IMG/VR virus record: IMGVR_UViG_3300045988_154609
Span: 94,285-158,284 of that record
DNA: 64,000 bases
Origin: a virus
Direction: 5' to 3' (one strand)
Shown: piece by piece, positions 33,075 to 64,000 of the stretch
Numbering within the stretch: position 1 is the first letter of the stretch
Layout of the letters: each line of letters opens with the position of its first letter
Program-made: the position numbers and the translations under genes
Notes under the pieces: generated by a model
What the model saw: only the letters and a program-made list of their open reading frames with translations
Told to the model about the DNA's origin: nothing
The model's database searches: none

Positions 33075-33622
33075 AGCATATCTTTACACTCCTCATATTT
33101 ATTTTTTATATCTTCAATAACTGTATCTAGTGAAACTGGATAACAGTTATGAGAATCAACTCCTACATGATACATAAAGAAATTATCTTCATAAAAATTA
33201 ACATTCTGATGTGTATGACCAAATAAGTTTAAAGTCATATGATGTAATCCTGAATCATCAACATTACCAGTTAATGTTGGATAATGACTCATATAAAAAT
33301 TATACTTTTTATATTTTAAAACTGTCGAATATCCAAGGCATTCAAGATCATTCTCTTTGTAAAGATTAATTCTTGTATTTGTATCATGGTTTCCAATAAT
33401 AAAATACTTTTTACCATTTAGCTGTTTTAAACATTCGAGTCCATGTTCATTATCTTTCAGCATCAAGTCGCCTAAGATATACACTTCATCTTCTGGCTGC
33501 ACCAGCTCATTCCATCTTTTAATAATTTCTTCGTCATGGTCAACAATATTCGGAAAGCCTCTTGGCTCATAAATGAAACCTTTATCATGACCCAGGTGAA
33601 GGTCTGAAGTCACATAAATCAT
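33071..33622 (-). CDS. calcineurin-like metallophosphoesterase
   Basis: MIYVTSDLHLGHD...GDL...GNHD motifs. Overlaps the kinase gene start and stop. Confidence 0.7.
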   Translation of the reverse strand: MIYVTSDLHLGHDKGFIYEPRGFPNIVDHDEEIIKRWNELVQPEDEVYILGDLMLKDNEHGLECLKQLNGKKYFIIGNHDTNTRINLYKENDLECLGYSTVLKYKKYNFYMSHYPTLTGNVDDSGLHHMTLNLFGHTHQNVNFYEDNFFMYHVGVDSHNCYPVSLDTVIEDIKNKYEECKDML

Positions 33623-34203
33623 TCTACATACTCCTTATCAGCATCTCCTACAATCAAAATATGTTTGTAGGTATATTTTTCATTGTAAGTTGGCTTATCA
33701 AAAGTATAAAACATTCTTCTGATTGTTCCTCTTGGAACATAAGCACGTCCCATTCCTTTTCGATTCTCATTCTGAGCAAGAATTTGAGCAAGCGGTAAAT
33801 TAAATACAACTGGAATAATATCTACTCCATCCAAATCAAGCTTATCAAGAACTCGATTTCTTGCTTTTTCACTCAGATGAGTTGCATCTGCAAAAACTGC
33901 AATATCATCAGTTGCGTCATTTAAAGCATTTTTAATTCTATTGCAGAACTCATCAAAGACATCATCTTCATACTTGAAGATGTTTTTATCATCTTCTTTT
34001 AAGAATTCAGCTCTTACTTCATCTCTTGACACATGTACACACTTGTAAGTCGTTGCCTGTGCCATTTCCTTCTTGACGTAAGTCGTCTTTCCCGATCCTG
34101 CGGGTCCGCACATAAGAAAGAGAATCTTGTGCTTCATCTTTATACACCCCATTTTTAAAATTTTCTTTAAACTCAAGAACATCCTCATATGATTTACATT
34201 CAA
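33619..34203 (-). CDS. P-loop polynucleotide-kinase-like protein (AAA_33/zeta-like). Likely true start near 34137.
   Basis: Walker A LMCGPAGSGKTTY. Translationally coupled to the phosphoesterase, resembling a split bacterial Pnkp healing module. Confidence 0.55.
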   Translation of the reverse strand: MNVNHMRMFLSLKKILKMGCIKMKHKILFLMCGPAGSGKTTYVKKEMAQATTYKCVHVSRDEVRAEFLKEDDKNIFKYEDDVFDEFCNRIKNALNDATDDIAVFADATHLSEKARNRVLDKLDLDGVDIIPVVFNLPLAQILAQNENRKGMGRAYVPRGTIRRMFYTFDKPTYNEKYTYKHILIVGDADKEYVE

Positions 34204-41533: not shown

Positions 41534-42715
41534 TTAAGAATGGAACTTCAATAAAAATTCATTGGAAACCGCCTTAAAGGACTGAACGCCATCCTGAGAA
41601 CGGAATACAAGACCTTCACGCATCTTTCCATCTATCACAGAATCACCTGTCGCAATAGCAAGAAGTTCATCAACTGTATCTGGAAGGATAAAGTTTTCAT
41701 CCACAATCGGCACCCATGGAATACCATACTCCATCATCAACTTGCTTGCCCGTTTAGAATCCCAACGACCTTCCGCAGAAGTGATGAAGTTAAATCCCAT
41801 AAAGTTATGCTCTTTCAGAGAGTATTCTCTCTTCTGGATACCCTGACCATAAGTTTCACCCTGAAGTGTTACCCATTCAAGGTCTGGACGATTTCTGAGA
41901 ATCTTCTGGAGAGTTGCTTCAACATTGTACTTTTCTGCCATTTCAACGTAAACGTTGGTATCATAAAAACAAGACTTATCCGGCTTATCAAATACTACAT
42001 TACGAGAGCAGATATAAAACTCAAATTTTTCTTTCTTCAAGAAACGAGTCTTAACTCTTTTCATTGTAAAGGTAGTAGAAGTACCATCAATTTTTTCAGT
42101 TGCAACCCATGGATTTTTATTCTCAAGAATCCAAGGCATATTTTGTACACGCTCTTCATCTGTTTTAGAAACCCATGCCGGCCATCCGGTTTTCTTATCA
42201 GAAGTTTTACCGAAGAACATGAATAAAATTTTCTTACCCCAAGTTCTACGCATTAACCATCTAAAAGGCTGATGAGAGAACAGTTTTCCATGTCTCTGAG
42301 CCATCTTTTTATATTTATCCACAGAAGATGCTTTACGAGCATTATCTTCTTTAACTGCATAAATTACTTTTAATTTCTGAGTTAAAAAGTCACCAAGTTT
42401 ATAAGCGTCCTTTTCCCAACCGAAGTCTTCAAAGCTCATAAGTAAACCCTGAGAAATTACAGTGCCTTTAAAATATTTCTGAGTTTTAATTTTAAAATGT
42501 TTCGGCTCAAGGAACATAAATGGCTCTTCTGCTGGAACTTTAGAATCAATCTCAAAGTAAACAGCTAAATCACCTGGCTTAAACTGGTCTTTACGAACCA
42601 TAATATGCCAACCATTTACGATAGCTACTTCTACTCTGTCAGCTCCTTCAATAGGACGAATCTCGTCAACTTTGACAACATAAGCAAGCTCTCTTTCTTT
42701 CTTTTCATTCAGCAT
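41534..42715 (-). CDS. ATP-dependent RNA ligase (Rnl family) with N-terminal OB/tRNA-binding-like domain
   Basis: Nucleotidyltransferase motif I TEKIDGTST (KxDG). The N-terminal ...VVKVDEIRPIEGADRVEVAIVNGW resembles a Myf/tRNA-binding OB fold. Confidence 0.65.
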   Translation of the reverse strand: MLNEKKERELAYVVKVDEIRPIEGADRVEVAIVNGWHIMVRKDQFKPGDLAVYFEIDSKVPAEEPFMFLEPKHFKIKTQKYFKGTVISQGLLMSFEDFGWEKDAYKLGDFLTQKLKVIYAVKEDNARKASSVDKYKKMAQRHGKLFSHQPFRWLMRRTWGKKILFMFFGKTSDKKTGWPAWVSKTDEERVQNMPWILENKNPWVATEKIDGTSTTFTMKRVKTRFLKKEKFEFYICSRNVVFDKPDKSCFYDTNVYVEMAEKYNVEATLQKILRNRPDLEWVTLQGETYGQGIQKREYSLKEHNFMGFNFITSAEGRWDSKRASKLMMEYGIPWVPIVDENFILPDTVDELLAIATGDSVIDGKMREGLVFRSQDGVQSFKAVSNEFLLKFHS

Positions 42716-43738: not shown

Positions 43739-44067
43739 TACTCAACTTTCCAACCAGCTTCCTTACAAACTCTTTTCATATTCTGAACTCCAACAGGATT
43801 CATACTATGAAATTTAAAAGTTGCATAAATATGCCAACCCCGCAGTTTTTGGCAACATTCAAGCCAGTCAAGAATTTTAATATAGTCTCCACCTTTCTCA
43901 TAATATTCACCGGCATCATGATCTAAATTAATTTCATTAACTTCAAGAATGTCTCCTTCTGGTCTAACAAGAGTAGTAAGACACATTTCTGCGTCCCAAA
44001 CACTCTTAATCCAAATATAAGATTCATCTGGCGCGGGCCGCATATCATCAATCCAAAGTTTAATCAT
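43738..44067 (-). CDS. hypothetical protein
   Basis: 109-aa ORF. Confidence 0.4.
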   Translation of the reverse strand: MIKLWIDDMRPAPDESYIWIKSVWDAEMCLTTLVRPEGDILEVNEINLDHDAGEYYEKGGDYIKILDWLECCQKLRGWHIYATFKFHSMNPVGVQNMKRVCKEAGWKVE

Positions 44068-44885
44068 TATTTTACCTCAAATTTCCAATAGTAGAAGTTG
44101 TACTGTTTCTTTGTATTATAGGATTTTTTAATCCTTTTGGCAATATTGTGGACATTTACAGTCGGATTATTTCTCATGCTCTTATCATATGATTTAACAT
44201 ATTCAACTGCTTCTTTAAGATTCTCAAATTTCTTAGTTCTTTCTTCTTCAAAATTTTTAGTAGGACAACAAAAAACATCAAAACGAGTATCTTCATATTC
44301 AATCTGGTCGGTTGTAATTTCCTTATACTCCATAAATACATTTGCATCTACTTCAGAAGCTTTTTCATTTTTACAGCCTTCATAAACTTCTTTTAACATC
44401 TTTGCATCGTCAAGAGAATTATGAGTCTGAACAATTTCTTCTCCTCTAAAATATTCGCAAACTTTAGCGAGGTTAATCAGTTTGATTAAGCCGAAATGAA
44501 CCTTAACAGCAGGAGCAAAATCCTTCATATCTGTATTCATATAACCAAGAATTGCTTTTGCTTTAAAACTATTTGTTTTGCGGAAGGTTGCTTTGATAAA
44601 ATCTGTATCACAATTCCCATAACAATAAAATTCAGGAATGTCATCGCCGCAATCTTCAAAACAAAAATCAAAGAACTCATTGAATACCTCTTCTGGAGAA
44701 GGAGCTGCTTCAACCATTTCTGTGGTAATACCTGTTAAATCAGTAATAAACTTAGAAACATTCTTATTTGTATTCTCTGGAGTATGCACAAGAGAATAAA
44801 ATTCTTTTCCATCTTCTCGAACACATCCAACAGAAATAATGTAATTGGAAAACTGCATTGCTTCAAAATCAATAAAATATTTCAT
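44067..44885 (-). CDS. DEDD-family 3'-5' exonuclease (DnaQ-like)
   Basis: Exo motif I FIDFEAM and a later H.SLDDA motif. Confidence 0.55.
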   Translation of the reverse strand: MKYFIDFEAMQFSNYIISVGCVREDGKEFYSLVHTPENTNKNVSKFITDLTGITTEMVEAAPSPEEVFNEFFDFCFEDCGDDIPEFYCYGNCDTDFIKATFRKTNSFKAKAILGYMNTDMKDFAPAVKVHFGLIKLINLAKVCEYFRGEEIVQTHNSLDDAKMLKEVYEGCKNEKASEVDANVFMEYKEITTDQIEYEDTRFDVFCCPTKNFEEERTKKFENLKEAVEYVKSYDKSMRNNPTVNVHNIAKRIKKSYNTKKQYNFYYWKFEVK

Positions 44886-45160: not shown

Positions 45161-45949
45161 TTATTCAGTTTTTCCTTTATTAAAATTAGGAGATTTTCTA
45201 AAATAAGTTGGAAGTAAATAATTTTGATCATTCCATCTTTTCCATATCTCTTCTAAATCTTCGATTGCTTTAAAATATTGTTCAACATGCGGGCGCTCCA
45301 TTCTATCTGCGTGAAAGTGACCAAAAAGCCAAACACCCCAATTAATCTTATCTTTAAAAGAATCAAGCCAAACTTCCATAGAATCATCTACAGTAGACTG
45401 GTCAATCATAGATAAAAATAAGTCAGTTGGTTCCCAGCTTAATGGACAAGTATGAGTAAAAACAAAATCAAAACTTTGTCCCGCATACATTGCTTCAATA
45501 GCCTGCATTTCTGCTTCTGTTAATTGTTCGTTTGGATACCAAGTATAATGATTTTCAAGTCTATACCATTTATCCACAGAATAAGCTCCACCTATTACAA
45601 GTGTATTATGACCAAGAAAATCATAATTAGAGCCATCCATAAGATAATGGATATGAGGATAACCGGGTTCAATGAAAACATAATTCGCAACATCATCATC
45701 CCAAACCTCTTCAATGCCTTTAACATCTTCTGGACGAGCTTCATGATTTCCCCTTACCAAATAAAATGTACATCCATATTGCTCAAGTTGCATCTTAATA
45801 TCATGTCGCCTTGCCGCACTTTTATAAAAATTTACACCTGCATCTCCTAAGATAATAATACCAGTCTCTTTTGGATTTTGTATTTCAAGCCATGCAAAAC
45901 GATCCATACAGCCATGTGTATCTCCTGTTACAAAAAACTGTTTAATCAT
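45161..45949 (-). CDS. calcineurin-like metallophosphoesterase
   Basis: FFVTGDTHG, LGDAGVN and RGNHE motifs. Overlaps the downstream nucleotidyltransferase gene by 4 nt. Confidence 0.7.
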   Translation of the reverse strand: MIKQFFVTGDTHGCMDRFAWLEIQNPKETGIIILGDAGVNFYKSAARRHDIKMQLEQYGCTFYLVRGNHEARPEDVKGIEEVWDDDVANYVFIEPGYPHIHYLMDGSNYDFLGHNTLVIGGAYSVDKWYRLENHYTWYPNEQLTEAEMQAIEAMYAGQSFDFVFTHTCPLSWEPTDLFLSMIDQSTVDDSMEVWLDSFKDKINWGVWLFGHFHADRMERPHVEQYFKAIEDLEEIWKRWNDQNYLLPTYFRKSPNFNKGKTE

Positions 45950-46767
45950 TTCTTTTCCTCCAACTCAAAAGCAATACTTTTCTTCATAATTTCTGCTTGA
46001 ACTTCTTGAAGAAGATTTTCAGCTTCTTCATCAGTATAGTTAAATTCAGAGTCTTTTGTATATGGGGCACAAATTTTATCAATATGAGCCATATGCTCAT
46101 CCGCAACTTTAATAGCTTCTTCTTTTGAATAAAGACCAGTTTTAATGTCTTTTAAATATTGCGGGTTAGCTGGACACAAACATTCTTTATATGGCGCTCC
46201 AGCAATATATTTATCGAGATATTCATCAATTCTCACAAGCTGATAAAGCTGTTTTGGGTCATAATTAAACTTTTCAAATGTTTCTTTATGAGCTTCTGTT
46301 TCTTTAGTAAGAGCATATCTTTTTCCAAGAGCAATGCCAGACATAGCTTTTACTGCGAAATAAGGATTATAATGTGCAATAACTTCATTTTTCGCAATCA
46401 ATTTATTCCACTCTTTTTCATACATTGGATTAATGATTTTATAATTAGTGAAAAGAATTTCAATAAAATTTAGATTCTGTTTGCGGAAAGTATCAAACAT
46501 AAGCCTAATATCTTTAAAGTCAATATGTTCCCCATTAGCCCTGAAATGAGTTGTAGACATAGGTTTACGATTATAAATAAAATCATTTAATGTCGGAGTG
46601 GTAATAAGTTTTGTATCAATATCAGAATCTTCAGTATCAAGACCATAATTTTGACTACCTTGTAGAAAAATACCTACAATATTATTCTTAGCAAAGTATT
46701 GTTTAGATTCAAGATAATGCTCTTGAATACCATTCGCAGTTTTAATTATTGTATTAAGGTCTGCCAT
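45946..46767 (-). CDS. pol-beta superfamily nucleotidyltransferase
   Basis: GS...D.D motif IFLQGSQNYGLDTEDSDIDT. Confidence 0.5.
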   Translation of the reverse strand: MADLNTIIKTANGIQEHYLESKQYFAKNNIVGIFLQGSQNYGLDTEDSDIDTKLITTPTLNDFIYNRKPMSTTHFRANGEHIDFKDIRLMFDTFRKQNLNFIEILFTNYKIINPMYEKEWNKLIAKNEVIAHYNPYFAVKAMSGIALGKRYALTKETEAHKETFEKFNYDPKQLYQLVRIDEYLDKYIAGAPYKECLCPANPQYLKDIKTGLYSKEEAIKVADEHMAHIDKICAPYTKDSEFNYTDEEAENLLQEVQAEIMKKSIAFELEEKK

Positions 46768-47697: not shown

Positions 47698-48604
47698 TTA
47701 TTCTTCTCCTATGTAAATTAAATCATCAACATATTTGCGGTCTTCACCTTTTAAAATAGGCATATTTTTATCAATAACCCAGATAGGTCTTTCTTCAATA
47801 ATTGTAGTTGTAACTTTATCTTCTCCAAAAGGTTGTGGTTCTCTTTTTATATTTTCAGTTACTTTTGTTGCGACTTTAATACATGCGGTACCTCGTTTAC
47901 ATGGTATTGTAAAATCATTCCAATTAATACCATATTTAGTCATTAACATATCTTGAATCATATTACAAGTTTTATCTTGAAGTTCATCATGTGAAAAATG
48001 AGCTTGTCCGACCATTTGAATACTATTTCTTGTTGCATCAAGTTGCCGCCAATAGATTAGGTTAGTTACCTCTTCTTTTGGAATGTTAAAACATCTGGCA
48101 TCAAACAATGCTCCTTTCTTAATTGCTTTAGAATAAATTTCAGACAATTTCCACTCTGGTGAATTTGTTACTTCTGGATCATTAGTACCACCTTCATACC
48201 ATTCATATCCAAAAGTTTCAACGCCCCATTTATCCACTTCTTGAGCGAAGAATCTGTTAAAAGCCATAGTTGCCATTGAAGCAGAAATACTACATATTTT
48301 CTGAACTTCATAATCGAACCATGCAGAAGAAGTGAATTTCTGATAATCCACTAAAATCAGAGTAATTTCATCTGATTGTGTATATCCAAAAACGCAACCT
48401 TGAATATTTTCACATAAATATTTCATTGTTTGTTGCATTGTATCCATTAGCACAAAATCAAAGGGTTTTTGAAAACTTCTTGTAAAAGTATGAAACGCCT
48501 TACCGTCAAAGACGTATCGCTACTGGTGTTCTTCTCATAAGAACAGTTTTACTAACTTTTTCATAATTTTTCATTCTGTTAGCTAAATCACTTCTATTCA
48601 TAAC
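47698..48604 (-). CDS. Thg1-like protein (tRNA-His guanylyltransferase-like 3'-5' polymerase), interrupted by a +1 frameshift near 48510
   Basis: The N-terminal 31 codons (MNRSDLANRMKNYEKVSKTVLMRRTPVAIRL*) end at a TGA. The next frame continues FDGKAFHTFTR...YTQSDEITLIL... (Thg1 RMK.YE, P..IRLDG.aF and SDE motifs). One extra T sits in the CTTTGACGG run. Confidence 0.6.
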
Positions 48605-50265: not shown

Positions 50266-51075
50266 TTAATTCTCCTCTAACAGCTCATCAAACATATTTT
50301 GAAATTTACTATAATTGACAGAATCATCGTTAATGATAGGAATTGCGAAAATTACTTTCTTAAATTCAGTTGCATAATCTGTAACTAACAGATTGATAAA
50401 AATTTCTGCAACATCATCTGCATCCTGTCCAAATACTCCGCATCCAAAAGCCCCTAAAATAAGAGTATCAACTTGATTCTGCTTTGCTACTTCAAAAATA
50501 AATCGAATTCTTGATTCAAGAACTTTTTTATTTTCTTCTCTATCTACGTTGCAATACTTTGCAGCGGCAGTAAAATTAGGTGCGGCGCAAGTAATTACAT
50601 CGCAGTATTTTTCAATGCCAGAATGCTCAAATCTGATATTTGGAGAATAAATTGCTCTATTCTCATACAAAGCACGATTCTTGTGTTTTTCATTCCAATC
50701 ATAATAATTTGGAATTTGGCTTAATACGTTGTAAAGAAAAGATTCATGGCACAGACACTCTTCCTGAGCACGTGAACCTCTAATAAACATTCCGCCAGGA
50801 TTCTTATATGAAGCAAAATTAAGAACTGCAACTTTTCCATCTGTAGAATCGCAAGCTACAATAGCTTCAACGCTTCCAACAGCATCAAGAGCAATATCTG
50901 CTTCTTTTAATTTTCTTGCGGGCGTTGTTGCTTTAAAATCTTTGCTATAAATTTTACTATTCATTACGCTTTCCGCAATCTTACTTGCAAATTGCTCATT
51001 CATTTGCTTAGTATGCTCTTGTGCAATAACTGCTCTTTGAGCTTTATCTGCCCAATAATAACTAATATCTTTCAT
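50266..51075 (-). CDS. macrodomain protein of the bacterial-type PARG / DUF2263 (TIGR02452) family
   Basis: VLNFASYKNPGGMFIRGSRAQEECLCHESFLY matches the family signature (vLNFAs..pGGG...GA.AQEE.LC..S.LY). Confidence 0.6.
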   Translation of the reverse strand: MKDISYYWADKAQRAVIAQEHTKQMNEQFASKIAESVMNSKIYSKDFKATTPARKLKEADIALDAVGSVEAIVACDSTDGKVAVLNFASYKNPGGMFIRGSRAQEECLCHESFLYNVLSQIPNYYDWNEKHKNRALYENRAIYSPNIRFEHSGIEKYCDVITCAAPNFTAAAKYCNVDREENKKVLESRIRFIFEVAKQNQVDTLILGAFGCGVFGQDADDVAEIFINLLVTDYATEFKKVIFAIPIINDDSVNYSKFQNMFDELLEEN

Positions 51076-51706: not shown

Positions 51707-52924
51707 TTACCCTCCTTTTTTATGAATTATATTATGCCAATTCTTATTATAATATTTTTTATTATTTATCTTTTTTCGATTTGGCGTTATGAATTGATAA
51801 GACGCTTTTTTATATTTACTCTTTTTATATAAAGAATAATAAGTATTAATAATAGGAATACTATCTTCATAATACTTTTTATAAAAATGTTTTGAATCAC
51901 ACCATTGAATCCATCCTAAAGAAGAAACCCAAGCACACCATTCTTTATCTGTTGGAAGTTTATATTCTTTGCTATATTTTTGCATTTTTATAGCAGTTTG
52001 TTTAAAAGTTTTTAAAGTAGTTTTTCTTAATAATTTATATCCTCTAAAATGTCTATATCCAACAAAATCTACTCCTCTTGCATCAACGGGGAAAATTTGA
52101 TAATTAGATTTTATTTCTAAATCTAATTCTGATAATAAATATTCTCTTATTAAAAATAACCACTCTTGTAACTGCTCTTTTGTTTCTCCAAAAATAACAA
52201 TATCATCCATGTATCTTACAACATAATGACAATGTAAAACTTCTTTTAACCAATGATCAAAAAATGTTAAATAATAATTTGCTAAATATTGAGATAAATA
52301 AGACCCAACTGGAATTCCCTTTCCAGGTCTTAAATATAATTCTTTTTCTTCTTGTGGTAAATCAATTTTAGAAATATCACAATTGTCCATACTATCAATT
52401 ATTTTATCTAATTCAATTAATAGATCTTTATCTTTAAATTTTCTTCTTAATAATTTTTTTAAAATTTTTCTATTAATACTGGGATAAAATTTTTTAATAT
52501 CTAATTTTAAACAATATTTAGTTCTCTTAGGATCTGAATTTATCCATTTATCAACTAATTCACTAGCTTGGTGAATACCTCTTCCAGGTATAGATGCACA
52601 AGTGAAATCTGTCATAGTTTTTCTAAATATTGGTTCTATTTGTAGCATAATTGCCCATTGAATAATTCGATCTGGATAGTAAGGAAGTTTAAATAAAATT
52701 CTTTTTTTATTTTTGTCTTGAATAAGACTTGTTTTATAAGGACTTACTTGGTATGTATGATTCTTTAACATTTTTTGTATTTTTTGAGATCGCTCATCTA
52801 AATTATTTGAAGTTTTTACTACAGCTGAATAAAAACTTTTATCTTTCTTTGCATTTAGATGAGCTCTTTTTATATTATCTATGTCAATAATATCAGAATA
52901 TATGTTTCCTGACCTTTTTGGCAT
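51707..52924 (-). CDS. diversity-generating retroelement reverse transcriptase
   Basis: RT motifs LDIKKFYPSI and YVVRYMDDIVIFG (YxDD). IPVGSYLSQ fits the DGR-type (I/L)GxxxSQ signature. Adjacent to the TR/VR pair. Confidence 0.8.
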   Translation of the reverse strand: MPKRSGNIYSDIIDIDNIKRAHLNAKKDKSFYSAVVKTSNNLDERSQKIQKMLKNHTYQVSPYKTSLIQDKNKKRILFKLPYYPDRIIQWAIMLQIEPIFRKTMTDFTCASIPGRGIHQASELVDKWINSDPKRTKYCLKLDIKKFYPSINRKILKKLLRRKFKDKDLLIELDKIIDSMDNCDISKIDLPQEEKELYLRPGKGIPVGSYLSQYLANYYLTFFDHWLKEVLHCHYVVRYMDDIVIFGETKEQLQEWLFLIREYLLSELDLEIKSNYQIFPVDARGVDFVGYRHFRGYKLLRKTTLKTFKQTAIKMQKYSKEYKLPTDKEWCAWVSSLGWIQWCDSKHFYKKYYEDSIPIINTYYSLYKKSKYKKASYQFITPNRKKINNKKYYNKNWHNIIHKKGG

Positions 52925-53130
52925 AGAGGAACCTTCTTTCTATCTATTTTTTTTATTATTTTATACTTTTTTCTTTTATTTTTTTATTGTAAAAAAGAAA
53001 ACTTTTTAGAGCAAACGTTCAAAATATTTTTACTAGTACACTCCTCAAAAATTTGCTAATGTTTTGCCAAGAGGCATGGTAAAAATTTTGGTTGGATTTA
53101 AAAAATCAAAAACTAAAAATAGATAAAAAC

Positions 53131-55284: not shown

Positions 55285-55485
55285 TTATTTTACCTCATAT
55301 TTAGAATCCATTAGCATTTCTAAAGTAATATTTTCTTTTTCCCAATATGGGATTCTAACTAATGGAATATTATTTGCGGCCGCCCAATCATTTTTCTTTT
55401 TGTCTCTTTCTTGTCTATCTTGTTCAAACGAAACGGACTGGAAGAAAATTTCCAGTCCGCATATTAATTTTCTTACTGGATACAA
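55285..55485 (-). CDS. hypothetical protein
   Basis: 66-aa ORF. Confidence 0.3.
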   Translation of the reverse strand: MYPVRKLICGLEIFFQSVSFEQDRQERDKKKNDWAAANNIPLVRIPYWEKENITLEMLMDSKYEVK

Positions 55486-56996
55486 GAGTATCTTTCAGAA
55501 TCGAGCTTCTTCATCATGAGAGAGTAGCCATCTTCTCCAGAGAGAATTTCTTCTACCATCGTCATTGAGAATCCAGATACATAGGAGAATCTTCCGCCAA
55601 GGGCTGGAATGTTATTCTGTCTTGCATCAAGATTCCAGAAGATTACTTTTGGTAATTCATAGCCATAAGCCATCCACTTCTGAGCAATGTTCTCAAGCAG
55701 AGTATTGATTTCACCAATACCACCGGTAATACGGTTTCCATAGCTCCAACGCTCTCTGGAAGGACGTCCAAAGGACATACAACCATTAAACTCCATATCA
55801 GAGAAGATATAAAGAGTTTTTGGCATCTCAGAAGCAGGAACTTTATTTTTAAGAGCGACGTTTAACATAAGGTCAAAAGTTGCCTCAATGTTTGTGCTTC
55901 CACCCCAGTCGGCAGAACGTGCTCTCTGGAATTTATCATAAATATCTACTCCATCGAATCTAACAAACTGAGGATTGCTGGAGAATGTGATGAAATGGTT
56001 CTGGAAAGGACCTTTACCACGCTCTGCGATATAAGCACCCATAGATACTGCTGCATTCATTGGAGTACCACTCATAGAGCCAGATACATCGACGATTGCA
56101 ATTCCGTTCTCCTCACGACCATTGTAGTAGTCTTTAAGGTTTGCCCAATATTTATCCCACATCAAACGCTCAGTCTGAGTTGGAGTACCGTAGTATCCAC
56201 CATAACCAAAAATCTGACTTGCGATATCTACTGGATTCAGGACTGCCGCATTAACAGTCTTAGTTTCATCCTTAGCAAAGTCCGCATAAGTCTGTGCTCC
56301 AGCCTTTGCACGCTCAATGTCGTGTCTTGCGAAAGCGTTCTTATACTTCATACCTGCTTTAGATGGAATCTTATCGAACTCAATTTCATCCCAACGATTC
56401 TCAGACATTAAACGCTCAAGAACGTTAATACGAGCACGAAGGATAGAAAGAGTCTTACGATACTGCTTTGCAGTCATTCCAAAATATTTACGAGTTACTT
56501 TTCCAAGTCTGCGAGACTCATGAGAAGAAGTATTCTCAGATTTCAGCCATTTTGCAAGCAGAGATGGAGTTTTGCACTGAACATCAAGTGCAAGCTGGTC
56601 TTTCATAATCTTCAGAGCATCTCCCTCAAGAGCTGTTCCTACGAATACATACAAGTCATCCCAACGACCAAACTCTGGTACATGAATCAAGTTTCTACGT
56701 ACCGCTTCTTTATCGACAGCAACCAGATCTTTGATTGCTACACGGAAAAATCTACGCTCACCCTGTCCACCACGCACGTCACGCAGATAGAACAAACATT
56801 TCAGAGCGTAAACAGGATTCTCTCTGAAAGCATTTCTTACAAGTGTTTTTACATCATCATCGCTTCTGTTACGATATGCTCCACCAAGTGCGAACATATC
56901 CAACAAATCTGACTTAGTTGTCTTATGTGTAATAGCACCATTTTCAGTTGTTGTGAAGTTTGTAGCTGCTTTCATTCCATTCATAAAACTATTCAT
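55473..56996 (-). CDS. TROVE/Ro60-like protein with C-terminal vWA domain
   Basis: N-terminal helical domain (...YALKCLFYLRDVRGGQGERRFFR...), then a vWA MIDAS motif IVDVSGSMSG in the C-terminal half. Domain order matches Ro60/Rsr. Confidence 0.55.
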   Translation of the reverse strand: MNSFMNGMKAATNFTTTENGAITHKTTKSDLLDMFALGGAYRNRSDDDVKTLVRNAFRENPVYALKCLFYLRDVRGGQGERRFFRVAIKDLVAVDKEAVRRNLIHVPEFGRWDDLYVFVGTALEGDALKIMKDQLALDVQCKTPSLLAKWLKSENTSSHESRRLGKVTRKYFGMTAKQYRKTLSILRARINVLERLMSENRWDEIEFDKIPSKAGMKYKNAFARHDIERAKAGAQTYADFAKDETKTVNAAVLNPVDIASQIFGYGGYYGTPTQTERLMWDKYWANLKDYYNGREENGIAIVDVSGSMSGTPMNAAVSMGAYIAERGKGPFQNHFITFSSNPQFVRFDGVDIYDKFQRARSADWGGSTNIEATFDLMLNVALKNKVPASEMPKTLYIFSDMEFNGCMSFGRPSRERWSYGNRITGGIGEINTLLENIAQKWMAYGYELPKVIFWNLDARQNNIPALGGRFSYVSGFSMTMVEEILSGEDGYSLMMKKLDSERYSCIQ

Positions 56997-57256
56997 AGAT
57001 AAAATCTCCTTTTTCTCTTAACCTTGTTACAAGGTCGTAATTGATTTTTAACAAGATCCTTTTTGGTTAGAGCGTTTTAATTTTTCCCACTTAAACTACA
57101 GAATTACTTCTGACTGGATATGGACCAGCATTCCCTTTACTTTCGTTTATACCTACCACAGTATAAAAATATTTTTTTTTAGCTGTAAGAACCTTTCTTT
57201 ATCTTACATATATATTATATTATATTTTTATTTAAAAATCAATTAAGATTTTTAAG

Positions 57257-57330
57257 AGGCGGGAAGGGGATTCGAACCCCTGAATAGCGGTTTTGCAGAC
57301 CGCCGCCTTAACCAACTTGGCTACCCCGCC
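57257..57330 (-). tRNA. tRNA-Cys (GCA)
   Basis: Hand-folded cloverleaf: acceptor GGCGGGG/TCCCGCC, anticodon stem GCGGT/ACCGC with loop CTGCAAA, T-arm AGGGG-TTCGAAT-CCCCT. Confidence 0.85.
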
Positions 57331-57794
57331 TGAAACTCTTCTATCGGATACCCATTCTCCGCAAACCACTCTTGAATTGGTTCACGTTCTGAACAATGAT
57401 TTCCAAAAGCCTCATGCACAATTAAAATTACAACTGGCTCCTCTTGGAATTTTTCTCGTTCTTTAACAGCATATCCAATAGACTCAATTCTTGAAAGAAT
57501 ATTTTGAAAATCTAAATGCTCTAATTGCATTTTGTATGTTTTTAAAAACATACAATCATTTGCGGTGCTTGCACATCCTTTTGGACCAGAACATAATCCT
57601 TCACATAAAGGACCTGGCGCAAATGGTTCTGCTCTTAAACCATTCCATACTCCATTTTTATCTTTAAATTGATAATCTTGACCTTGGTTTCTATGAAACC
57701 ATTTAGGATCCCATTTAGCTGTACTAAGAGGAATCATATAAGGTTTAAAAAATCTAATTTGATAAAAATAAGATGTCATAATTTTCATATTCAT
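57321..57794 (-). CDS. hypothetical protein between tRNA genes (weak DUF488-like C-terminus)
   Basis: 157-aa ORF whose 3' end overlaps tRNA-Cys by about 10 nt. Confidence 0.4.
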   Translation of the reverse strand: MNMKIMTSYFYQIRFFKPYMIPLSTAKWDPKWFHRNQGQDYQFKDKNGVWNGLRAEPFAPGPLCEGLCSGPKGCASTANDCMFLKTYKMQLEHLDFQNILSRIESIGYAVKEREKFQEEPVVILIVHEAFGNHCSEREPIQEWFAENGYPIEEFQAG

Positions 57795-59511: not shown

Positions 59512-59796
59512 AACTATTCTCCTTTTTAAGTTTTTTCGTTCTATTCTAAATAAAATTTAACTTAAAACTTTTAACTTAAAAAGTCCAAAATTTTTTTAAT
59601 ACTCCTCACACTCCGGTGAGGAGTTTATCTTGAATAGTTTATCAAGACACTTTATTTTTCATTTGAGGGATTTGAACCCTCTAAAAATCATTCACAACAC
59701 AATTTTATTATCCATTTTCTTTAATTGCTGAGAAAGTGTCTTTTTTAATTTATATATAAATTATAACATATATTTTTTTTAAAAGCAAATTTTTAT

Positions 59797-61610: not shown

Positions 61611-61910
61611 CTCCTTATTTTTCTATAATAATTATATAATATTTTTTATAAAAAATCAAATTGATTTTTTAATTAAAAATGTGGTATAATTATATATATT
61701 GAGGAGAATTTAAAAAATAGTTTGCTGGTTAATAAAAAAATCCAGTCTTAATAATAAGATTGGATTTTTTGTTTTTCTTTTCGTTCACGTTTATCTCTTT
61801 CGATTTTACGCATTTCTTTTAATCGTTTACAATTATTGCATCCATGATGGTTACAATTACAATCCCAACAGCCATCAGTATCTAACCAAAACCAATTTGG
61901 TGGTTGCGGC

Positions 61911-62239: not shown

Positions 62240-62590
62240 TTAAAGTGTTTTCTCAATAGCCGCAACATTGGCTTTTGCTACATTACAAGCCTCATTTGCG
62301 TCTAAAAGATATTCCTGCATTTTTGCAAGATGCTTCTGAGCTTCTGCAAGCTCCTGGAGTGCCTCAGAAACCTTACTTGTAGCTCTCTTAGCTCTTTTTT
62401 CTGCAATCTTTGCGTTACAACGGGCAATAGCCAGCTCAGTACCTTTCTCTATATCAAAGGTATCTCTTGGATCTGCCTTTGCATAGCCTTTTACATTTTT
62501 ACCTGCATAAGTACTTACTGCAATTACCTTCCGCTGATTCTGGTCTACAAATACCCGATATTTCTCTTTACCAAAAGTAGTTTTCATCAT
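62240..62590 (-). CDS. hypothetical coiled-coil protein
   Basis: 116-aa ORF. Confidence 0.45.
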   Translation of the reverse strand: MMKTTFGKEKYRVFVDQNQRKVIAVSTYAGKNVKGYAKADPRDTFDIEKGTELAIARCNAKIAEKRAKRATSKVSEALQELAEAQKHLAKMQEYLLDANEACNVAKANVAAIEKTL

Positions 62591-62610
62591 TTTTTAAATC
62601 TCCTTTATCT

Positions 62611-62660
62611 CTTATCTTTAATATAAATATATTATATAATATTTTTATTAAAAAATCAAA
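62611..62660 (-). promoter_or_regulatory. conserved promoter box immediately downstream of the tRNA-like element
   Basis: cttatctttaatataaatatattatataatatttttattaaaaaatcaaa. Confidence 0.55.
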
Positions 62661-62712
62661 GCCGAAGATGAGACTCGAACTCATTTTATATATGTACCAA
62701 CTACACTTCAGC
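62660..62712 (-). ncRNA. tRNA-like element lacking an anticodon arm (acceptor stem + D-arm + T-arm only)
   Basis: Minus strand GCTGAAG-TG-TAGTTGGTACA-TATATAAA-ATGAG-TTCGAGT-CTCAT-CTTCGGC-T. The acceptor halves GCTGAAG/CTTCGGC and the T-arm ATGAG/CTCAT pair perfectly. It is only 52 nt long and has no anticodon stem-loop. Confidence 0.45.
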
Positions 62713-62717
62713 AAAAT

Positions 62718-62743
62718 GCTAAGAAAGATAAATCTTTCTTAGC
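62718..62743 (-). terminator. intrinsic terminator hairpin after the tail-fibre-like gene
   Basis: Perfect 11-12 bp inverted repeat GCTAAGAAAGAT-TTA-TCTTTCTTAGC, followed on the minus strand by ATTTTG. Confidence 0.55.
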
Positions 62744-62756
62744 TTAATATTTTTAA

Positions 62757-63368
62757 TTATGCAAATAAAGCATCAATTTCCTCATTTGTCATAGCTACAA
62801 AATCAGTTTTTTGAGCATATCCAGAAAGGTCAATTACAGTGCCAAGAGCATCCCATGTTTTAGATTCTGCAATATAACCATAGTTCATTCCACTATCAGT
62901 TACATTATAAACATCTCCATCAGCAGCATCTTTTGGTAATGCATCAAAAGTATCTACAGAGCCTTTGAAATGATAAACTCCAGTTAATTTTGCTTCAACT
63001 GCTGATAATTCTGCGCTTGTTGCAAGATGAGCAGCTTCTAATGAAGTTGAAAAAGCATTTGAAACATCTTGCTGAGTTAAAATAGTTGGTTTATTTTGTA
63101 CATTTGCCCAATCTACAGCATCAGCAGATAAAGTACCATCTTCAGAAACTTGCAGTCCAGTACCAACTTTAACTCCACCGAGAGTATCTGCACTTGCTTT
63201 TGTAAGGGTATAATTTTGTAAGCCCGCAAGTTTTTGTTTTTCCTCTGCGGTATAGTCATTAGAAGAAAGTCCTTTTCCCTCTTCGACAGAAACTTTTCCT
63301 TGTAATTTTTCATCAAGTTTAGTTTTAAATCTGGTTAAATTTTCTTTTGTTACAAAAGTATTTGCCAT
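62757..63368 (-). CDS. tail-fibre-like protein
   Basis: Contains DWANVQNKPT, a common phage tail-fibre repeat. Confidence 0.5.
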   Translation of the reverse strand: MANTFVTKENLTRFKTKLDEKLQGKVSVEEGKGLSSNDYTAEEKQKLAGLQNYTLTKASADTLGGVKVGTGLQVSEDGTLSADAVDWANVQNKPTILTQQDVSNAFSTSLEAAHLATSAELSAVEAKLTGVYHFKGSVDTFDALPKDAADGDVYNVTDSGMNYGYIAESKTWDALGTVIDLSGYAQKTDFVAMTNEEIDALFA

Positions 63369-63382
63369 AATTAATTTCCTCC

Positions 63383-63769
63383 TTATTTAAACATTTCGTC
63401 GATTTCACTATCTGACATTACATTTATGCCTAAGTCAGAACTTGTTAAATCGCCATTAATTTTAGTTCCATTTACTGTTGGAATATCAGAAAGAGATGAA
63501 TAGCTTAGTTTTGGTGAAGCAGAAACACCGGTATCCTTACCTTTTACGAACCAATTACCATTGTCGCCAATTTCAGGAGTAGCTCCTTCTGGTCCAATTA
63601 AACTATTTAACCAATCTGATTCAGTGCCTATAAAGCCATTTTGTTTAGCGACTTCATAAGCTGAAAGGCCTTTTTCACCTTTTAAACCTCCTGCACCTGC
63701 GAGAGAAGCTTCAACATATTTTTTTGCTAATGCTAAAGTAACTATATCCATATGTGCATTACACCTCAA
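63383..63769 (-). CDS. tail-fibre-like protein with collagen-like/fibre motif
   Basis: GEKGLSAYEVAKQNGFIGTESDWLNSLIGPEG is a motif widespread in phage tail fibres. Confidence 0.5.
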   Translation of the reverse strand: MRCNAHMDIVTLALAKKYVEASLAGAGGLKGEKGLSAYEVAKQNGFIGTESDWLNSLIGPEGATPEIGDNGNWFVKGKDTGVSASPKLSYSSLSDIPTVNGTKINGDLTSSDLGINVMSDSEIDEMFK

Positions 63770-63941
63770 TCCATTCTTTTGAGCTGTTTAACATATAAAC
63801 AGTGCCAGTACTAATAACAAACGCTGTGCTTCCCATTTGAATGCCAGAGGTTGGAAGATTCTTAATATCTTCTTGAGTATCTACAACATATTCTTTTAAA
63901 TTATATGTAGATTTTCCGTTTTCGGATAAAACTGAAATCAT
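63759..63941 (-). CDS. hypothetical protein
   Basis: 60-aa ORF. Confidence 0.3.
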   Translation of the reverse strand: MISVLSENGKSTYNLKEYVVDTQEDIKNLPTSGIQMGSTAFVISTGTVYMLNSSKEWIEV

Positions 63942-64000
63942 AAAAGATTACTCCTTTCTCCCTCTTTTTATTCTCATGTATAATAAGAAAAAAGTTTGAT

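What the first reader, a model, noticed from the sequence alone, without database searches (positions are those of the whole stretch)
62660..62743. tRNA-like element with acceptor, D and T arms but no anticodon arm, sandwiched between a terminator and a promoter box
The minus strand reads GCTGAAG-TG-TAGTTGGTACA-TATATAAA-ATGAG-TTCGAGT-CTCAT-CTTCGGC-T. It has a perfectly paired 7-bp acceptor stem, a D-arm with AGTTGG loop and a canonical T-arm, but 8 nt of AT where the anticodon arm should be. It lies directly after the perfect 12-bp hairpin at 62718-62743 and directly before the promoter box at 62611-62660. The structure resembles the tRNA-mimic modules of bacterial Y RNAs, or a minimal substrate for RNase P, CCA-adding or Thg1-type enzymes. 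It could also be a decayed tRNA or an att-site remnant, though no integrase is present in the window.
Basis: seen in the sequence. Interest (0 to 1): 0.6.

Follow-up and report, generated by a model that had tools for sequence, protein, structure and literature searches.

The report
Anticodon-less remnant of phage tRNA-Thr
A 53-base stretch in a large human-gut phage is a threonine tRNA gene that has lost its anticodon arm but has kept its acceptor and T arms intact in diverged relatives, so it cannot decode and may survive as a cutting signal for tRNA-processing enzymes.

Summary
On the minus strand, 62712..62660 reads as a 7-bp acceptor stem (one G.U), a 4-bp D-like hairpin, an 8-nt A/U linker, a canonical T arm and a discriminator U. 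It lies between a hairpin and a repeated promoter box.

It is not chance. A related contig (L058) carries a full-length tRNA-Thr(AGU) at the same position, after the same upstream gene (81% aa) and a homologous hairpin. That tRNA scores 67.6 bits against the Rfam tRNA model. The element is therefore an internally deleted tRNA-Thr, about 20 nt shorter.

It forms the last 53 nt of a ~1.4-kb three-gene insert that close relatives lack.

Three lineages share the deletion. They differ at 40% of four-fold sites in the neighbouring gene, yet only 1 of 32 paired positions varies, and that change keeps the pair (U-A to U.G). Loops and linker vary freely. This points to purifying selection on the tRNA "top half".

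My best reading is inferred, not shown: a t-element-like RNase P/Z processing signal. A slowly decaying relic is the main rival. The att-site and Y-RNA readings are not supported for this element.

In passing, the window also encodes a Ro60-like protein, a Thg1-like protein, RNA-repair enzymes and a second structured small RNA.

The parts
62660..62712 (-). Whole tRNA-Thr-derived element (53 nt), lacking the anticodon arm and variable loop.
   Evidence: Sequence. RF00005 scores 22.5 bits, below threshold. It is positionally homologous to the full tRNA-Thr(AGU) at L058 1174-1246.
62706..62712 (-). Acceptor stem, 5' strand: GCTGAAG.
   Evidence: Pairs 7/7 with 62667..62661, including U3.G70. Paired in 100% of 9 sequences.
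62693..62705 (-). D-like hairpin TGTA-GTTGG-TACA. It equals the L058 D arm minus 3 nt from each stem strand.
   Evidence: The stem is invariant in all 6 truncated variants. The loop varies (GTTGG, GTCGG, ATTGGA, TAGGAT) but always keeps GG.
62685..62692 (-). A/U linker TATATAAA, in place of the anticodon arm and variable loop.
   Evidence: Its length varies from 5 to 9 nt among variants.
62668..62684 (-). T arm: ATGAG-TTCGAGT-CTCAT.
   Evidence: The stem and T54-A58 are invariant in the truncated clade; only positions 59-60 vary. Three stem pairs show double compensatory changes against full-length tRNA-Thr genes.
62660..62667 (-). Acceptor stem 3' strand CTTCGGC plus discriminator T. No CCA is encoded.
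   Evidence: In L057 and L068, G70 is A70, which restores U-A.
62718..62743 (-). Stable hairpin ending 5 nt (AUUUU) upstream of the element. It could be a weak terminator or a protector of the mRNA 3' end.
   Evidence: Terminator-like site with 11 pairs, -14.5 kcal/mol. The stem is kept by compensatory changes in L058. The same hairpin-then-tRNA layout precedes tRNA-Gly and tRNA-Lys in the window and several tRNAs in relatives.
62631..62659 (-). Repeated promoter box TTGATT-17-TATAAT, driving the 116-aa ORF 62590..62240.
   Evidence: One search finds the same box at 61659, 60981, 58372 and 57242. Homology with close relatives resumes exactly at 62659.
62757..63368 (-). 203-aa head-fibre-like ORF, the last gene of the inserted cassette whose 3' end is the element.
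   Evidence: some homologs carry PF11133. The insert is L036 2315-3709 and is absent from L001, L038 and L047.
63383..64000 (-). The rest of the cassette inside the window: the 128-aa and 60-aa ORFs and their leader. The insert's left end lies about 54 nt beyond the window.

Best explanation
**Origin (shown).** The element is a phage tRNA-Thr gene that has lost about 20 nt: the whole anticodon arm, the variable loop and part of the D stem. It cannot decode.

**Location (shown).** It is the last 53 nt of a ~1.4-kb three-gene cassette. In one sub-lineage of a ~195-kb human-gut phage, this cassette sits in the tRNA region, between a hairpin and the next promoter box.

**Conservation (shown).** Across lineages that share the deletion, the tRNA 'top half' is conserved while loops and linker drift. 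The top half is the acceptor stem, the T arm with its T54-A58 loop core, and a D-like hairpin that keeps GG.

**Mechanism (inferred).**
- The element is transcribed by read-through from the cassette promoter, across the weak hairpin.
- It folds into an acceptor/T-arm minihelix with a D/T-loop elbow.
- It is still recognised by RNase P at G62712 (U at -1), by RNase Z or exonucleases after U62660, and by the CCA enzyme.
- It would then act as a t-element-like punctuation mark. The cut would leave the upstream mRNA ending in its protective hairpin and separate that mRNA from the next transcription unit. A small tRNA-like by-product would be released.
For: **Origin**
- L058 has the same upstream gene (81% aa), a homologous hairpin and a similar promoter box. 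At the same place it carries a 73-nt tRNA-Thr(AGU) that scores 67.6 bits.
- The two share the acceptor GCTGRAG/CTTCRGC, the UG at positions 8-9, the D-loop TAGTTGGTA, the T loop TTCGAGT and discriminator U.
- tRNA-Thr(UGU) genes with the same acceptor occur in related phages.

**Boundary**
- Homology to four close relatives breaks exactly at 62659/62660.

**Selection**
- L036/window, L057 and L068 share the truncated architecture.
- In the adjacent gene, 32 of 79 four-fold sites vary among these three lineages. Only 1 of 32 paired positions in the element varies, and the pair is kept (binomial P=1.4e-6).
- Within the element, paired versus unpaired variable columns give Fisher p=0.008.
- All 108 pair cells of the acceptor and T stems are standard pairs across 9 sequences, and 3 T-stem pairs change on both sides.

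**Layout**
- A stable hairpin ending 0-8 nt before the tRNA 5' end recurs for tRNA-Gly and tRNA-Lys here and for about ten tRNAs in relatives. That leaves no room for a promoter, so those tRNAs must be made by read-through and processing.
- Where the same three ORFs (95% aa) sit in another context (L081), they end in a GC-rich hairpin plus T7 terminator and have no tRNA-like element.

**Precedent**
- Plant-mitochondrial t-elements direct RNase P/Z cuts that create mRNA ends (PMC1920247).
- From my own knowledge, not tested here: acceptor/T-arm minihelices are substrates of RNase P, RNase Z and CCA enzymes.
Against: - There is no transcript or cleavage data of any kind.
- The hairpin followed by AUUUUG could terminate most transcripts before the element.
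- Nearest-neighbour folding prefers a rod-like alternative by 0.5-3.5 kcal/mol. The single-sequence z-score is only -1.64.
- Only three diverged lineages carry the truncated form, so there is no covariation within that clade. The compensatory T-stem changes may predate the deletion.
- The element is dispensable. Most close relatives lack the whole insert, and L081 lacks the element.
- Conservation could reflect a DNA-level role, or recombination of the hairpin/promoter-box module. Overall divergence of the 53 nt, at about 8% plus indels, is similar to that of the surrounding constrained sequence.
Confidence: 0.5

Rival explanations
1. Neutral relic. It is a tRNA-Thr pseudogene that lost its anticodon arm, has no remaining function, and simply has not yet decayed.
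For: - ARAGORN and Rfam reject it as a tRNA.
- Phage tRNA arrays turn over quickly, and other aberrant tRNA-like pieces occur in related phages: L006 343-384, and L072, L075 and L076.
- The insert is absent from most relatives, and the ORFs do without the element in L081.
- A related phage carries a tRNA-Thr(UGU) with the same acceptor, so the copy may have been redundant.
- Total divergence of the element is not lower than that of neighbouring sequence.
Against: - The deletion is shared by lineages that differ at 24-35% of four-fold sites, yet 31 of 32 paired positions are unchanged and the one change keeps the pair.
- Changes cluster in loops and linker (Fisher p=0.008).
- The D stem was shortened on both strands so that a 4-bp hairpin remains, with GG kept in four different loop sequences.
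Confidence: 0.3
2. Stand-alone tRNA mimic. The processed ~53-56-nt RNA is itself the product. It could be a decoy or sponge for host factors that attack or bind tRNA acceptor ends or elbows. It could also be a ligand for the phage's own Ro60-like, Thg1-like or nucleotidyltransferase proteins.
For: - The constraint is on exactly the acceptor, T arm and elbow.
- The window encodes a Ro60-like protein, a Thg1-family protein, a Pol-beta nucleotidyltransferase, RNase T, an RNA ligase and a phosphoesterase.
- Some defence nucleases recognise only the acceptor stem and CCA tail. Cas12a3 cleaves truncated tRNAs (PMC12851939).
Against: - The element travels with one optional cassette, not with the RNA-repair genes.
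- It has no promoter of its own.
- No family of such elements turned up in IMG/VR, the JGI metagenomes or GTDB genomes.
- Nothing links it specifically to any of these proteins.
Confidence: 0.12
3. A structure or DNA-level element unrelated to tRNA enzymes. It could be a second terminator or insulator hairpin ahead of the promoter box, or a recombination handle for cassette exchange.
For: - The acceptor helix is followed directly by UUUGAUUUUUU.
- A rod-like fold is the predicted MFE structure. The hairpin plus element together give z=-3.67.
- The cassette boundary coincides with the element's 3' end.
Against: - The U-run belongs to the promoter box and is present in relatives without the element.
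- A plain terminator does not need the conserved T-loop core TTCGA or the GG.
- The rod-like fold loses pairs in L068, whereas the tRNA-like fold keeps all of them.
Confidence: 0.06
4. An attP-type or integration-scar fragment of a host tRNA gene.
For: tRNA fragments at the edges of inserted DNA are a classic signature of integrative elements (PMC9897764). The element does lie at the edge of an insert.
Against: - Both acceptor strands are present and it is the middle that is missing, the opposite of an att duplication.
- The insert is a phage-in-phage cassette delimited by a shared promoter box.
- The homologous slot in L058 holds a complete phage tRNA.
- No integrase was found among 40 ORFs scanned.
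- No truncated copy exists in GTDB genomes.
- Identity to a host tRNA-Thr 3' half was not directly tested.
Confidence: 0.02

Closest known systems
Plant-mitochondrial t-elements (Hanic-Joyce et al.; Forner et al. 2007, PMC1920247)
   Same: They are degenerate tRNA-derived structures with a well-kept T arm and acceptor stem, embedded next to mRNAs. RNase P and RNase Z cut them to create mRNA 3' and 5' ends. The excised piece can receive C/CA additions.
   Different: Those are organellar and their cleavage has been mapped experimentally. Most keep some four-arm shape. This one is in a bacteriophage, has no anticodon arm at all, and its cleavage is only inferred.
MALAT1/mascRNA and MEN-beta tRNA-like 3' modules (own knowledge)
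   Same: The logic is the same: a stabilising structure sits immediately upstream of a tRNA-like fold. RNase P cleavage 5' of the fold makes the mature 3' end of the upstream RNA.
   Different: Those are eukaryotic nuclear lncRNAs. mascRNA keeps a small anticodon stem, and the stabiliser is a triple helix rather than a hairpin. There is no evolutionary relationship.
Truncated or pseudo tRNA genes in prokaryotic and phage tRNA clusters (e.g. PMC9897764)
   Same: It derives from a real tRNA gene, fails the tRNA detectors and lies in a tRNA-rich, recombinogenic region.
   Different: The usual fragments are 5' or 3' halves created by integration or CRISPR activity. Here the ends are kept, the middle is removed, and the helices appear to be under purifying selection.
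RNase P / RNase Z / CCA-enzyme minihelix model substrates (McClain, Guerrier-Takada and Altman 1987; own knowledge)
   Same: The element is a natural counterpart of the engineered acceptor-plus-T-arm minimal substrates. It has U at -1 and no encoded CCA, like the phage's real tRNAs.
   Different: Those are laboratory constructs. This one also keeps a D-like hairpin with GG that could rebuild the elbow.
tmRNA tRNA-like domain and bacterial Y RNA (YrlA) tRNA-like module
   Same: These are tRNA mimics that keep the acceptor/T-arm/D-loop elbow and lack an anticodon arm.
   Different: tmRNA inserts an mRNA-like domain and pseudoknots. In YrlA the ends lie in a Ro-binding stem and the 'acceptor' is closed by a loop. 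Neither model matches here.
Promoter-early stem-loop (PeSL) cassette shuffling in T4-type phages (Arbiol et al. 2010; own knowledge)
   Same: Optional gene cassettes are bounded by repeated hairpin-plus-promoter modules, and these modules serve as recombination points.
   Different: This explains how the insert arrived, not what the tRNA-like piece does. The box sequences are unrelated.

Membership tests
Canonical tRNA (Rfam RF00005) | 7-bp acceptor stem with a discriminator base. | tested here: met
   GCTGAAG/CTTCGGC plus U: 6 Watson-Crick pairs and 1 G.U.
Canonical tRNA (Rfam RF00005) | T arm: 5-bp stem, G53-C61, and a T54-Psi55-C56-R57-A58 loop. | tested here: met
   ATGAG-TTCGAGT-CTCAT.
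Canonical tRNA (Rfam RF00005) | Anticodon arm: 5-bp stem and a 7-nt loop carrying an anticodon. | tested here: not met
   Only the 8 nt TATATAAA lie between the D-like hairpin and the T arm. The Rfam alignment deletes this region.
Canonical tRNA (Rfam RF00005) | D arm at positions 10-25, preceded by U8 and N9. | tested here: inconclusive
   A 4-bp hairpin with a GG loop exists, but it consumes U8 and G9 and is 6 nt shorter than the D arm in L058.
Canonical tRNA (Rfam RF00005) | Detected by tRNA finders, or scores at or above the gathering score. | tested here: not met
   ARAGORN makes no call. The Rfam score is 22.5 bits against a gathering score of 29.
tRNA-Thr lineage (evolutionary origin) | Positional and sequence homology to a bona fide tRNA-Thr. 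| tested here: met
   L058 1174-1246 is tRNA-Thr(AGU), 67.6 bits, in the same slot. Acceptor, D loop, T loop and discriminator are shared. tRNA-Thr(UGU) genes have the same acceptor.
t-element-like processing signal | A tRNA-like fold with conserved T arm and acceptor, abutting mRNA units. | tested here: met
   It lies 5 nt after the hairpin that follows the 203-aa ORF and 1 nt before the next promoter. The stems are conserved.
t-element-like processing signal | RNA ends created by RNase P or RNase Z at the element's borders. | not testable with these tools
   No transcriptome or enzymology is available.
tmRNA | A tRNA-like domain plus a tag-encoding mRNA-like domain and pseudoknots. | tested here: not met
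   ARAGORN finds no tmRNA. There is no RF00023 hit in 62500-62900 at E<=10. Only 8 nt lie between the halves.
Bacterial Y RNA / YrlA (RF02553) | A terminal Ro-binding stem formed by the 5' and 3' ends, with a tRNA-like module distal to it. | tested here: not met
   The ends form the acceptor stem itself. There is no YrlA hit at E<=10.
Bacterial Y RNA / YrlA (RF02553) | A Ro60/Rsr gene encoded nearby. | tested here: met
   55473..56996 carries DUF2828 and a vWA domain. Its AF2 model matches Ro60/TROVE structures at E 1.7e-7 to 3e-4, with a low TM of about 0.35.
attP / integration-derived tRNA fragment | A partial copy (one end) of a host tRNA at a phage/host junction, with an integrase nearby. 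| tested here: not met
   Both ends are present and the junction is phage versus phage. No integrase was found in 40 ORFs. The truncated form is absent from GTDB genomes. Identity to host tRNA 3' halves was not tested.

The most novel reading that the evidence does not exclude
The element is a purpose-kept minimal tRNA mimic: acceptor stem, T arm and D-loop elbow with no anticodon. It would be released as a small CCA-tailed RNA that acts on tRNA-handling machinery. It could be a decoy for host immune enzymes that attack tRNA acceptor ends. It could also be a dedicated ligand for the phage's own Ro60-like, Thg1-like or nucleotidyltransferase proteins. On this reading it is neither a passive relic nor a simple cut site.
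Probability: 0.12. Interest if true: 0.7.

Novelty: new variant of a known kind. Interest (0 to 1): 0.4.

Why it matters
Phage tRNA arrays are usually read only as codon-supply or anti-defence devices, and broken tRNAs in them are written off.

In this case a tRNA lost everything needed for decoding. Yet for a divergence of about 0.4 changes per neutral site, it kept the half recognised by RNase P, RNase Z, the CCA enzyme and EF-Tu.

If it is processed, it would be a bacteriophage counterpart of organellar t-elements and of the MALAT1/mascRNA arrangement. tRNA-shaped punctuation would then be a general way to set mRNA ends in phage tRNA regions.

It also warns that sub-threshold tRNA hits in phage genomes can be selected elements.

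The surroundings make this phage group a good system for studying viral manipulation of tRNA metabolism. They include a Ro60-like protein, a Thg1-like protein, RNA ligase/kinase/phosphatase genes, an RT and a second T-arm-bearing small RNA.

Tried and rejected
**Searches for more copies of the element**
- No close relative in INPHARED phages (blastn).
- An exact 22-mer of the T arm plus acceptor found nothing in IMG/VR.
- Gapped acceptor/T-loop patterns gave only chance hits in coding DNA or full-length tRNA-Thr genes. They were run against IMG/VR, JGI metagenomes and GTDB genomes.
- The truncated form was therefore found only in ENA/Logan human-gut assemblies, reached through the neighbouring protein.

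**Searches for a class of such elements**
- An Rfam E-value scan of ten related loci is not sensitive to truncated forms.
- A home-made descriptor found one further candidate, L006 343-384. About 0.5 chance hits are expected over all the DNA scanned, so on its own it is weak. Its acceptor matches aberrant 67-nt tRNA-like genes in L072, L075 and L076.

**Readings rejected for this element**
- A chimera of two tRNAs: the two acceptor strands pair 7/7 and match one parent.
- A tRNA with an intron or a split tRNA: nothing is inserted; sequence is missing.
- tmRNA or Y RNA: see the membership test.
- An att remnant: see the rival explanations.

**Other limits**
- Thermodynamic folding alone cannot decide between the tRNA-like and rod-like folds.
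- A sequence search of the Ro60-like protein against PDB sequences found nothing, either as a single sequence or as a profile. Only the fold search did.
- A pattern scan for more copies of the 59.7-kb small RNA returned only the contigs already held.

Full report
**1. What is there**

The minus strand 62712..62660 reads GCTGAAG TGTA GTTGG TACA TATATAAA ATGAG TTCGAGT CTCAT CTTCGGC T.
- The two 7-mers pair 7/7, with one U.G wobble.
- ATGAG/CTCAT closes a textbook T loop (T54 T55 C56 G57 A58, G53-C61).
- TGTA/TACA closes a 5-nt loop carrying GG.
- Eight A/U bases stand where an anticodon arm and variable loop should be.
- Five bases upstream (AUUUU) ends an 11-bp hairpin at 62743..62718. This hairpin follows the stop codon of a 203-aa ORF.
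- One base downstream begins a TTGATT-17-TATAAT box. The same box recurs at 61659, 60981, 58372 and 57242.

ARAGORN finds four real tRNAs 3.8-5.4 kb away (Cys, Lys, Gly, Leu) but nothing here. The Rfam tRNA model aligns the acceptor and T arms and deletes the middle, giving 22.5 bits against a gathering score of 29. A strict descriptor of this architecture hits 0.08 times per shuffled window.

**2. Where it sits**

The window is part of a 195,681-bp contig from a human-gut metagenome (ENA ERZ913873; L036 is 100% identical to the window).

Many ~190-kb relatives carry the downstream 116-aa gene at 96-100% identity. In all of them, homology to the window starts exactly at 62659, the first base after the element.

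Block comparison shows a ~1.4-kb insert (L036 2315-3709) replacing 18 nt of the relatives. The insert contains:
- a terminator-like hairpin and leader;
- three small ORFs of 60, 122-128 and 203 aa, the last being head-fibre-like;
- the 62743 hairpin;
- the element, as its last 53 nt.

In the relatives this neighbourhood is a tRNA array (Pro, Gln, Tyr and others). More distant relatives have a complete tRNA directly in front of the same gene, or of the same promoter box (L006 tRNA-Ser, L008 tRNA-Tyr).

**3. What it came from**

I followed homologs of the 203-aa protein into ENA and Logan assemblies.
- At 90-99% aa identity, the same element is present. It has a T->C change in the D-like loop and a linker of 7, 8 or 9 nt.
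- At 85% and 84% aa identity (L057 and L068), two further variants appear. Their D-like loops are ATTGGA and TAGGAT, the linker is TATAA, T-loop positions 59-60 read AC and AT, and A70 restores a U-A pair.
- At 81% aa identity (L058), the same slot holds a complete 73-nt tRNA-Thr(AGU). It sits between a homologous hairpin, kept by compensatory changes, and a similar promoter box. ARAGORN calls it and Rfam scores it at 67.6 bits.

Removing GCG and ACG from the two strands of the L058 D stem gives exactly the window's TGTAGTTGGTACA.

tRNA-Thr(UGU) genes with the same acceptor occur in other phage contigs. One of them is a 194-kb phage that uses the same promoter box.

The element is therefore an internally deleted tRNA-Thr.

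**4. Relic, or kept for something?**

The three truncated lineages (window type, L057, L068) share the same deletion architecture, so the deletion predates their split.
- In the adjacent gene they differ at 24-35% of four-fold sites pairwise. Among the three, 32 of 79 such sites vary.
- Of the element's 32 paired positions, one varies, and it changes U-A to U.G (binomial P=1.4e-6 against the four-fold rate).
- Within the element, the substitutions fall in the D-like loop, T-loop positions 59-60 and the linker (Fisher p=0.008).
- Unstructured flanks, namely the 5-nt spacer and the stretch between stop codon and hairpin, vary freely.
- Across truncated and full-length sequences, all 108 acceptor and T-stem cells are standard pairs. 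Three T-stem pairs changed on both sides.
- GG is kept in four different D-like loop sequences.

Caveats:
- There are only three diverged lineages.
- No covariation arose after the deletion.
- The total divergence of the 53 nt is similar to that of neighbouring, also constrained, sequence.
- Nearest-neighbour folding slightly prefers a rod-like fold. That fold loses pairs in L068, whereas the tRNA-like fold keeps all of them.

On balance I take selection on the tRNA top half as more likely than not.

**5. How it probably works (inferred)**

The retained parts are the ones RNase P, RNase Z and the CCA enzyme need. The lost parts are the ones they do not need; this rests on established enzymology, not on a test here.

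There is no room for a promoter between hairpin and element. The same hairpin-then-tRNA layout precedes tRNA-Gly and tRNA-Lys in the window, the L058 tRNA-Thr, and about ten tRNAs in relatives. These RNAs must therefore be made by read-through of the hairpin followed by processing.

RNase P cleavage at G62712 (U at -1) would leave the cassette mRNA ending in its hairpin. This is the logic shown experimentally for plant-mitochondrial t-elements (PMC1920247) and, from my own knowledge, for MALAT1/mascRNA.

One contrast fits this reading. In L081 the same three ORFs (95% aa) sit elsewhere. They end in a GC-rich hairpin with a T7 tract, a proper terminator, and have no tRNA-like element.

The same observation also shows that the element is dispensable for the genes themselves.

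I put about 0.5 on this processing-signal reading, 0.3 on a neutral relic and 0.12 on a stand-alone mimic or decoy. The remainder goes to a terminator or DNA-level role (0.06) and an att scar (0.02).

**6. The other interpretations**

Y RNA module: the topology is wrong because the ends lie at the acceptor stem, and there is no YrlA hit. The idea is not baseless for this genome, though.
- The 507-aa DUF2828/vWA protein at 55473..56996 models as a Ro60/TROVE fold. The top eleven PDB matches are all Ro60/Rsr, at E 1.7e-7 to 3e-4, although TM is only about 0.35.
- A different, promoter-driven ~95-nt RNA at 59742..59650 is a better partner candidate. It has a 10-bp terminal stem enclosing a T-arm-like hairpin and is conserved with compensatory changes in a distant relative.

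att remnant: both ends of the tRNA are present, the junction is phage versus phage, no integrase was found among 40 ORFs, and no truncated copy exists in GTDB genomes.

Thg1 or CCA substrate: a Thg1-family gene and a Pol-beta nucleotidyltransferase gene are indeed in the window. However, the element travels with an optional cassette, not with those genes.

**7. Verdict**

This is a real feature, correctly described, and its origin is now settled: a tRNA-Thr with the anticodon arm deleted. It is a new variant of known kinds (tRNA pseudogene, or t-element-like tRNA mimic) rather than a new class.

Interest is moderate. The evidence for selection on a non-decoding tRNA top half in a phage is the notable part, and it can be tested directly with end-mapping or an RNase P assay.

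Noticed in passing
window 59650-59742 (minus strand); promoter-like site ~59790-59762; terminator-like hairpin 59624-59601: A candidate ~95-nt small RNA. A 10-bp terminal stem (AAGACACUUU/AAAGUGUCUU) encloses a T-arm-like hairpin, GAGGG-UUCAAAU-CCCUC. The fold z-score is -2.74. It is conserved in the distant relative L008, directly before tRNA-Leu, with compensatory changes in both the terminal stem and the T stem. ARAGORN and Rfam do not recognise it; the only hit is a faint tmRNA match of 13.9 bits. It may be a Y-RNA-like partner for the Ro60-like protein.
   Followed up: partly
window 55473-56996 (minus strand): A 507-aa DUF2828 + DUF7788/vWA protein. Its AlphaFold model (pLDDT 74, pTM 0.50) matches Ro60/TROVE structures (9kop, 2nvo, 1yvr, 9nen) as the top 11 PDB hits, at E 1.7e-7 to 3e-4 and TM of about 0.35. 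Sequence searches against PDB found nothing. It lies just downstream of tRNA-Cys and a promoter box.
   Followed up: partly
window 33619-34203, 41534-42715, 44067-44885, 45161-45949, 45946-46767, 47698-48453 (all minus strand): A gene set that looks like RNA or tRNA repair: an AAA_33 kinase-like protein, an RNA ligase (PHA02142 OB fold + RNA_ligase), an RNase T-type exonuclease, a calcineurin-like phosphoesterase, a weak Pol-beta nucleotidyltransferase match, and a Thg1-family protein (54.8 bits).
   Followed up: no
window 51707-52924 (minus strand) and 53002-53081 (minus strand): A reverse transcriptase (RVT_1, E 1.4e-20) with a sub-threshold Rfam RT-17 RNA match immediately upstream (31.1 bits against a gathering score of 40.4). 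A PARG/macro-domain protein lies nearby at 50266-51075.
   Followed up: no
window 62659, 61659, 60981, 58372, 57242 (minus strand); also 34521-34465, 34429-34387, 39372-39316: A ~50-nt promoter box (TTGATT-17-TATAAT plus a conserved leader ending in AAAGGAG) repeated many times. It is shared with distant relatives and marks the cassette breakpoints, which suggests module shuffling by recombination in the boxes.
   Followed up: partly
window 58293-58269 before tRNA-Gly, and ~57911-57882 before tRNA-Lys; several loci: A recurrent layout: a stable hairpin ending 0-8 nt before a tRNA 5' end, with no room for a promoter. It appears for about 12 tRNAs in this phage group.
   Followed up: partly
window 57321-57330: The 157-aa ORF (57794..57321) ends inside tRNA-Cys (57330..57256). 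Its stop codon lies within the tRNA's 5' acceptor strand.
   Followed up: no
L036 1383-1823 (same contig, beyond window base 64000): In the window's own genome a 140-aa PDDEXK_5 ORF is inserted into tRNA-Tyr. The break falls at L001 2422/2423, which is about position 36 of the tRNA, in the anticodon loop. ARAGORN no longer calls the tRNA. This may be an intron or homing-endonuclease insertion.
   Followed up: partly
L006 343-384; L072 1388-1454, L075 4128-4194, L076 1838-1904: Other aberrant tRNA-like pieces in related gut phages. One is a 42-nt acceptor-plus-T-arm minihelix with an 11-nt linker (L006). The others are 67-nt elements with perfect acceptor, D and T arms but a degenerate 18-nt 'anticodon' region, which ARAGORN does not call. 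All share the acceptor GCGAATA/TATTCGC.
   Followed up: partly
L058 1174-1246: A full-length phage tRNA-Thr with anticodon AGU (A34). From my own knowledge this is unusual for bacterial-type tRNAs. It also has a C27.A43 mismatch.
   Followed up: no
L006 4744-5329, L012 5285-5878, L013 4866-5455; L007 1971-2071; L005 1261-1389, L008 1336-1452: Three features in the tRNA regions of relatives. There are ROOL RNAs at 290-323 bits, a sub-threshold YrlA (Y-RNA-like) hit in L007 (30.8 bits against a gathering score of 69), and tRNA-model hits 117-129 nt long that suggest insertion- or intron-bearing tRNAs.
   Followed up: no
L001 2473-2931 and L036 1910-2314 (just beyond the window end); L059 ~1700-1930: A conserved ~460-nt non-coding stretch between tRNA-Tyr and the insert or promoter box. 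It has GC-rich motifs (GAACCGCAAACCCAAAA), and a similar motif lies upstream of the fibre-gene trio in another phage. It may be a structured RNA. There is no Rfam hit.
   Followed up: no
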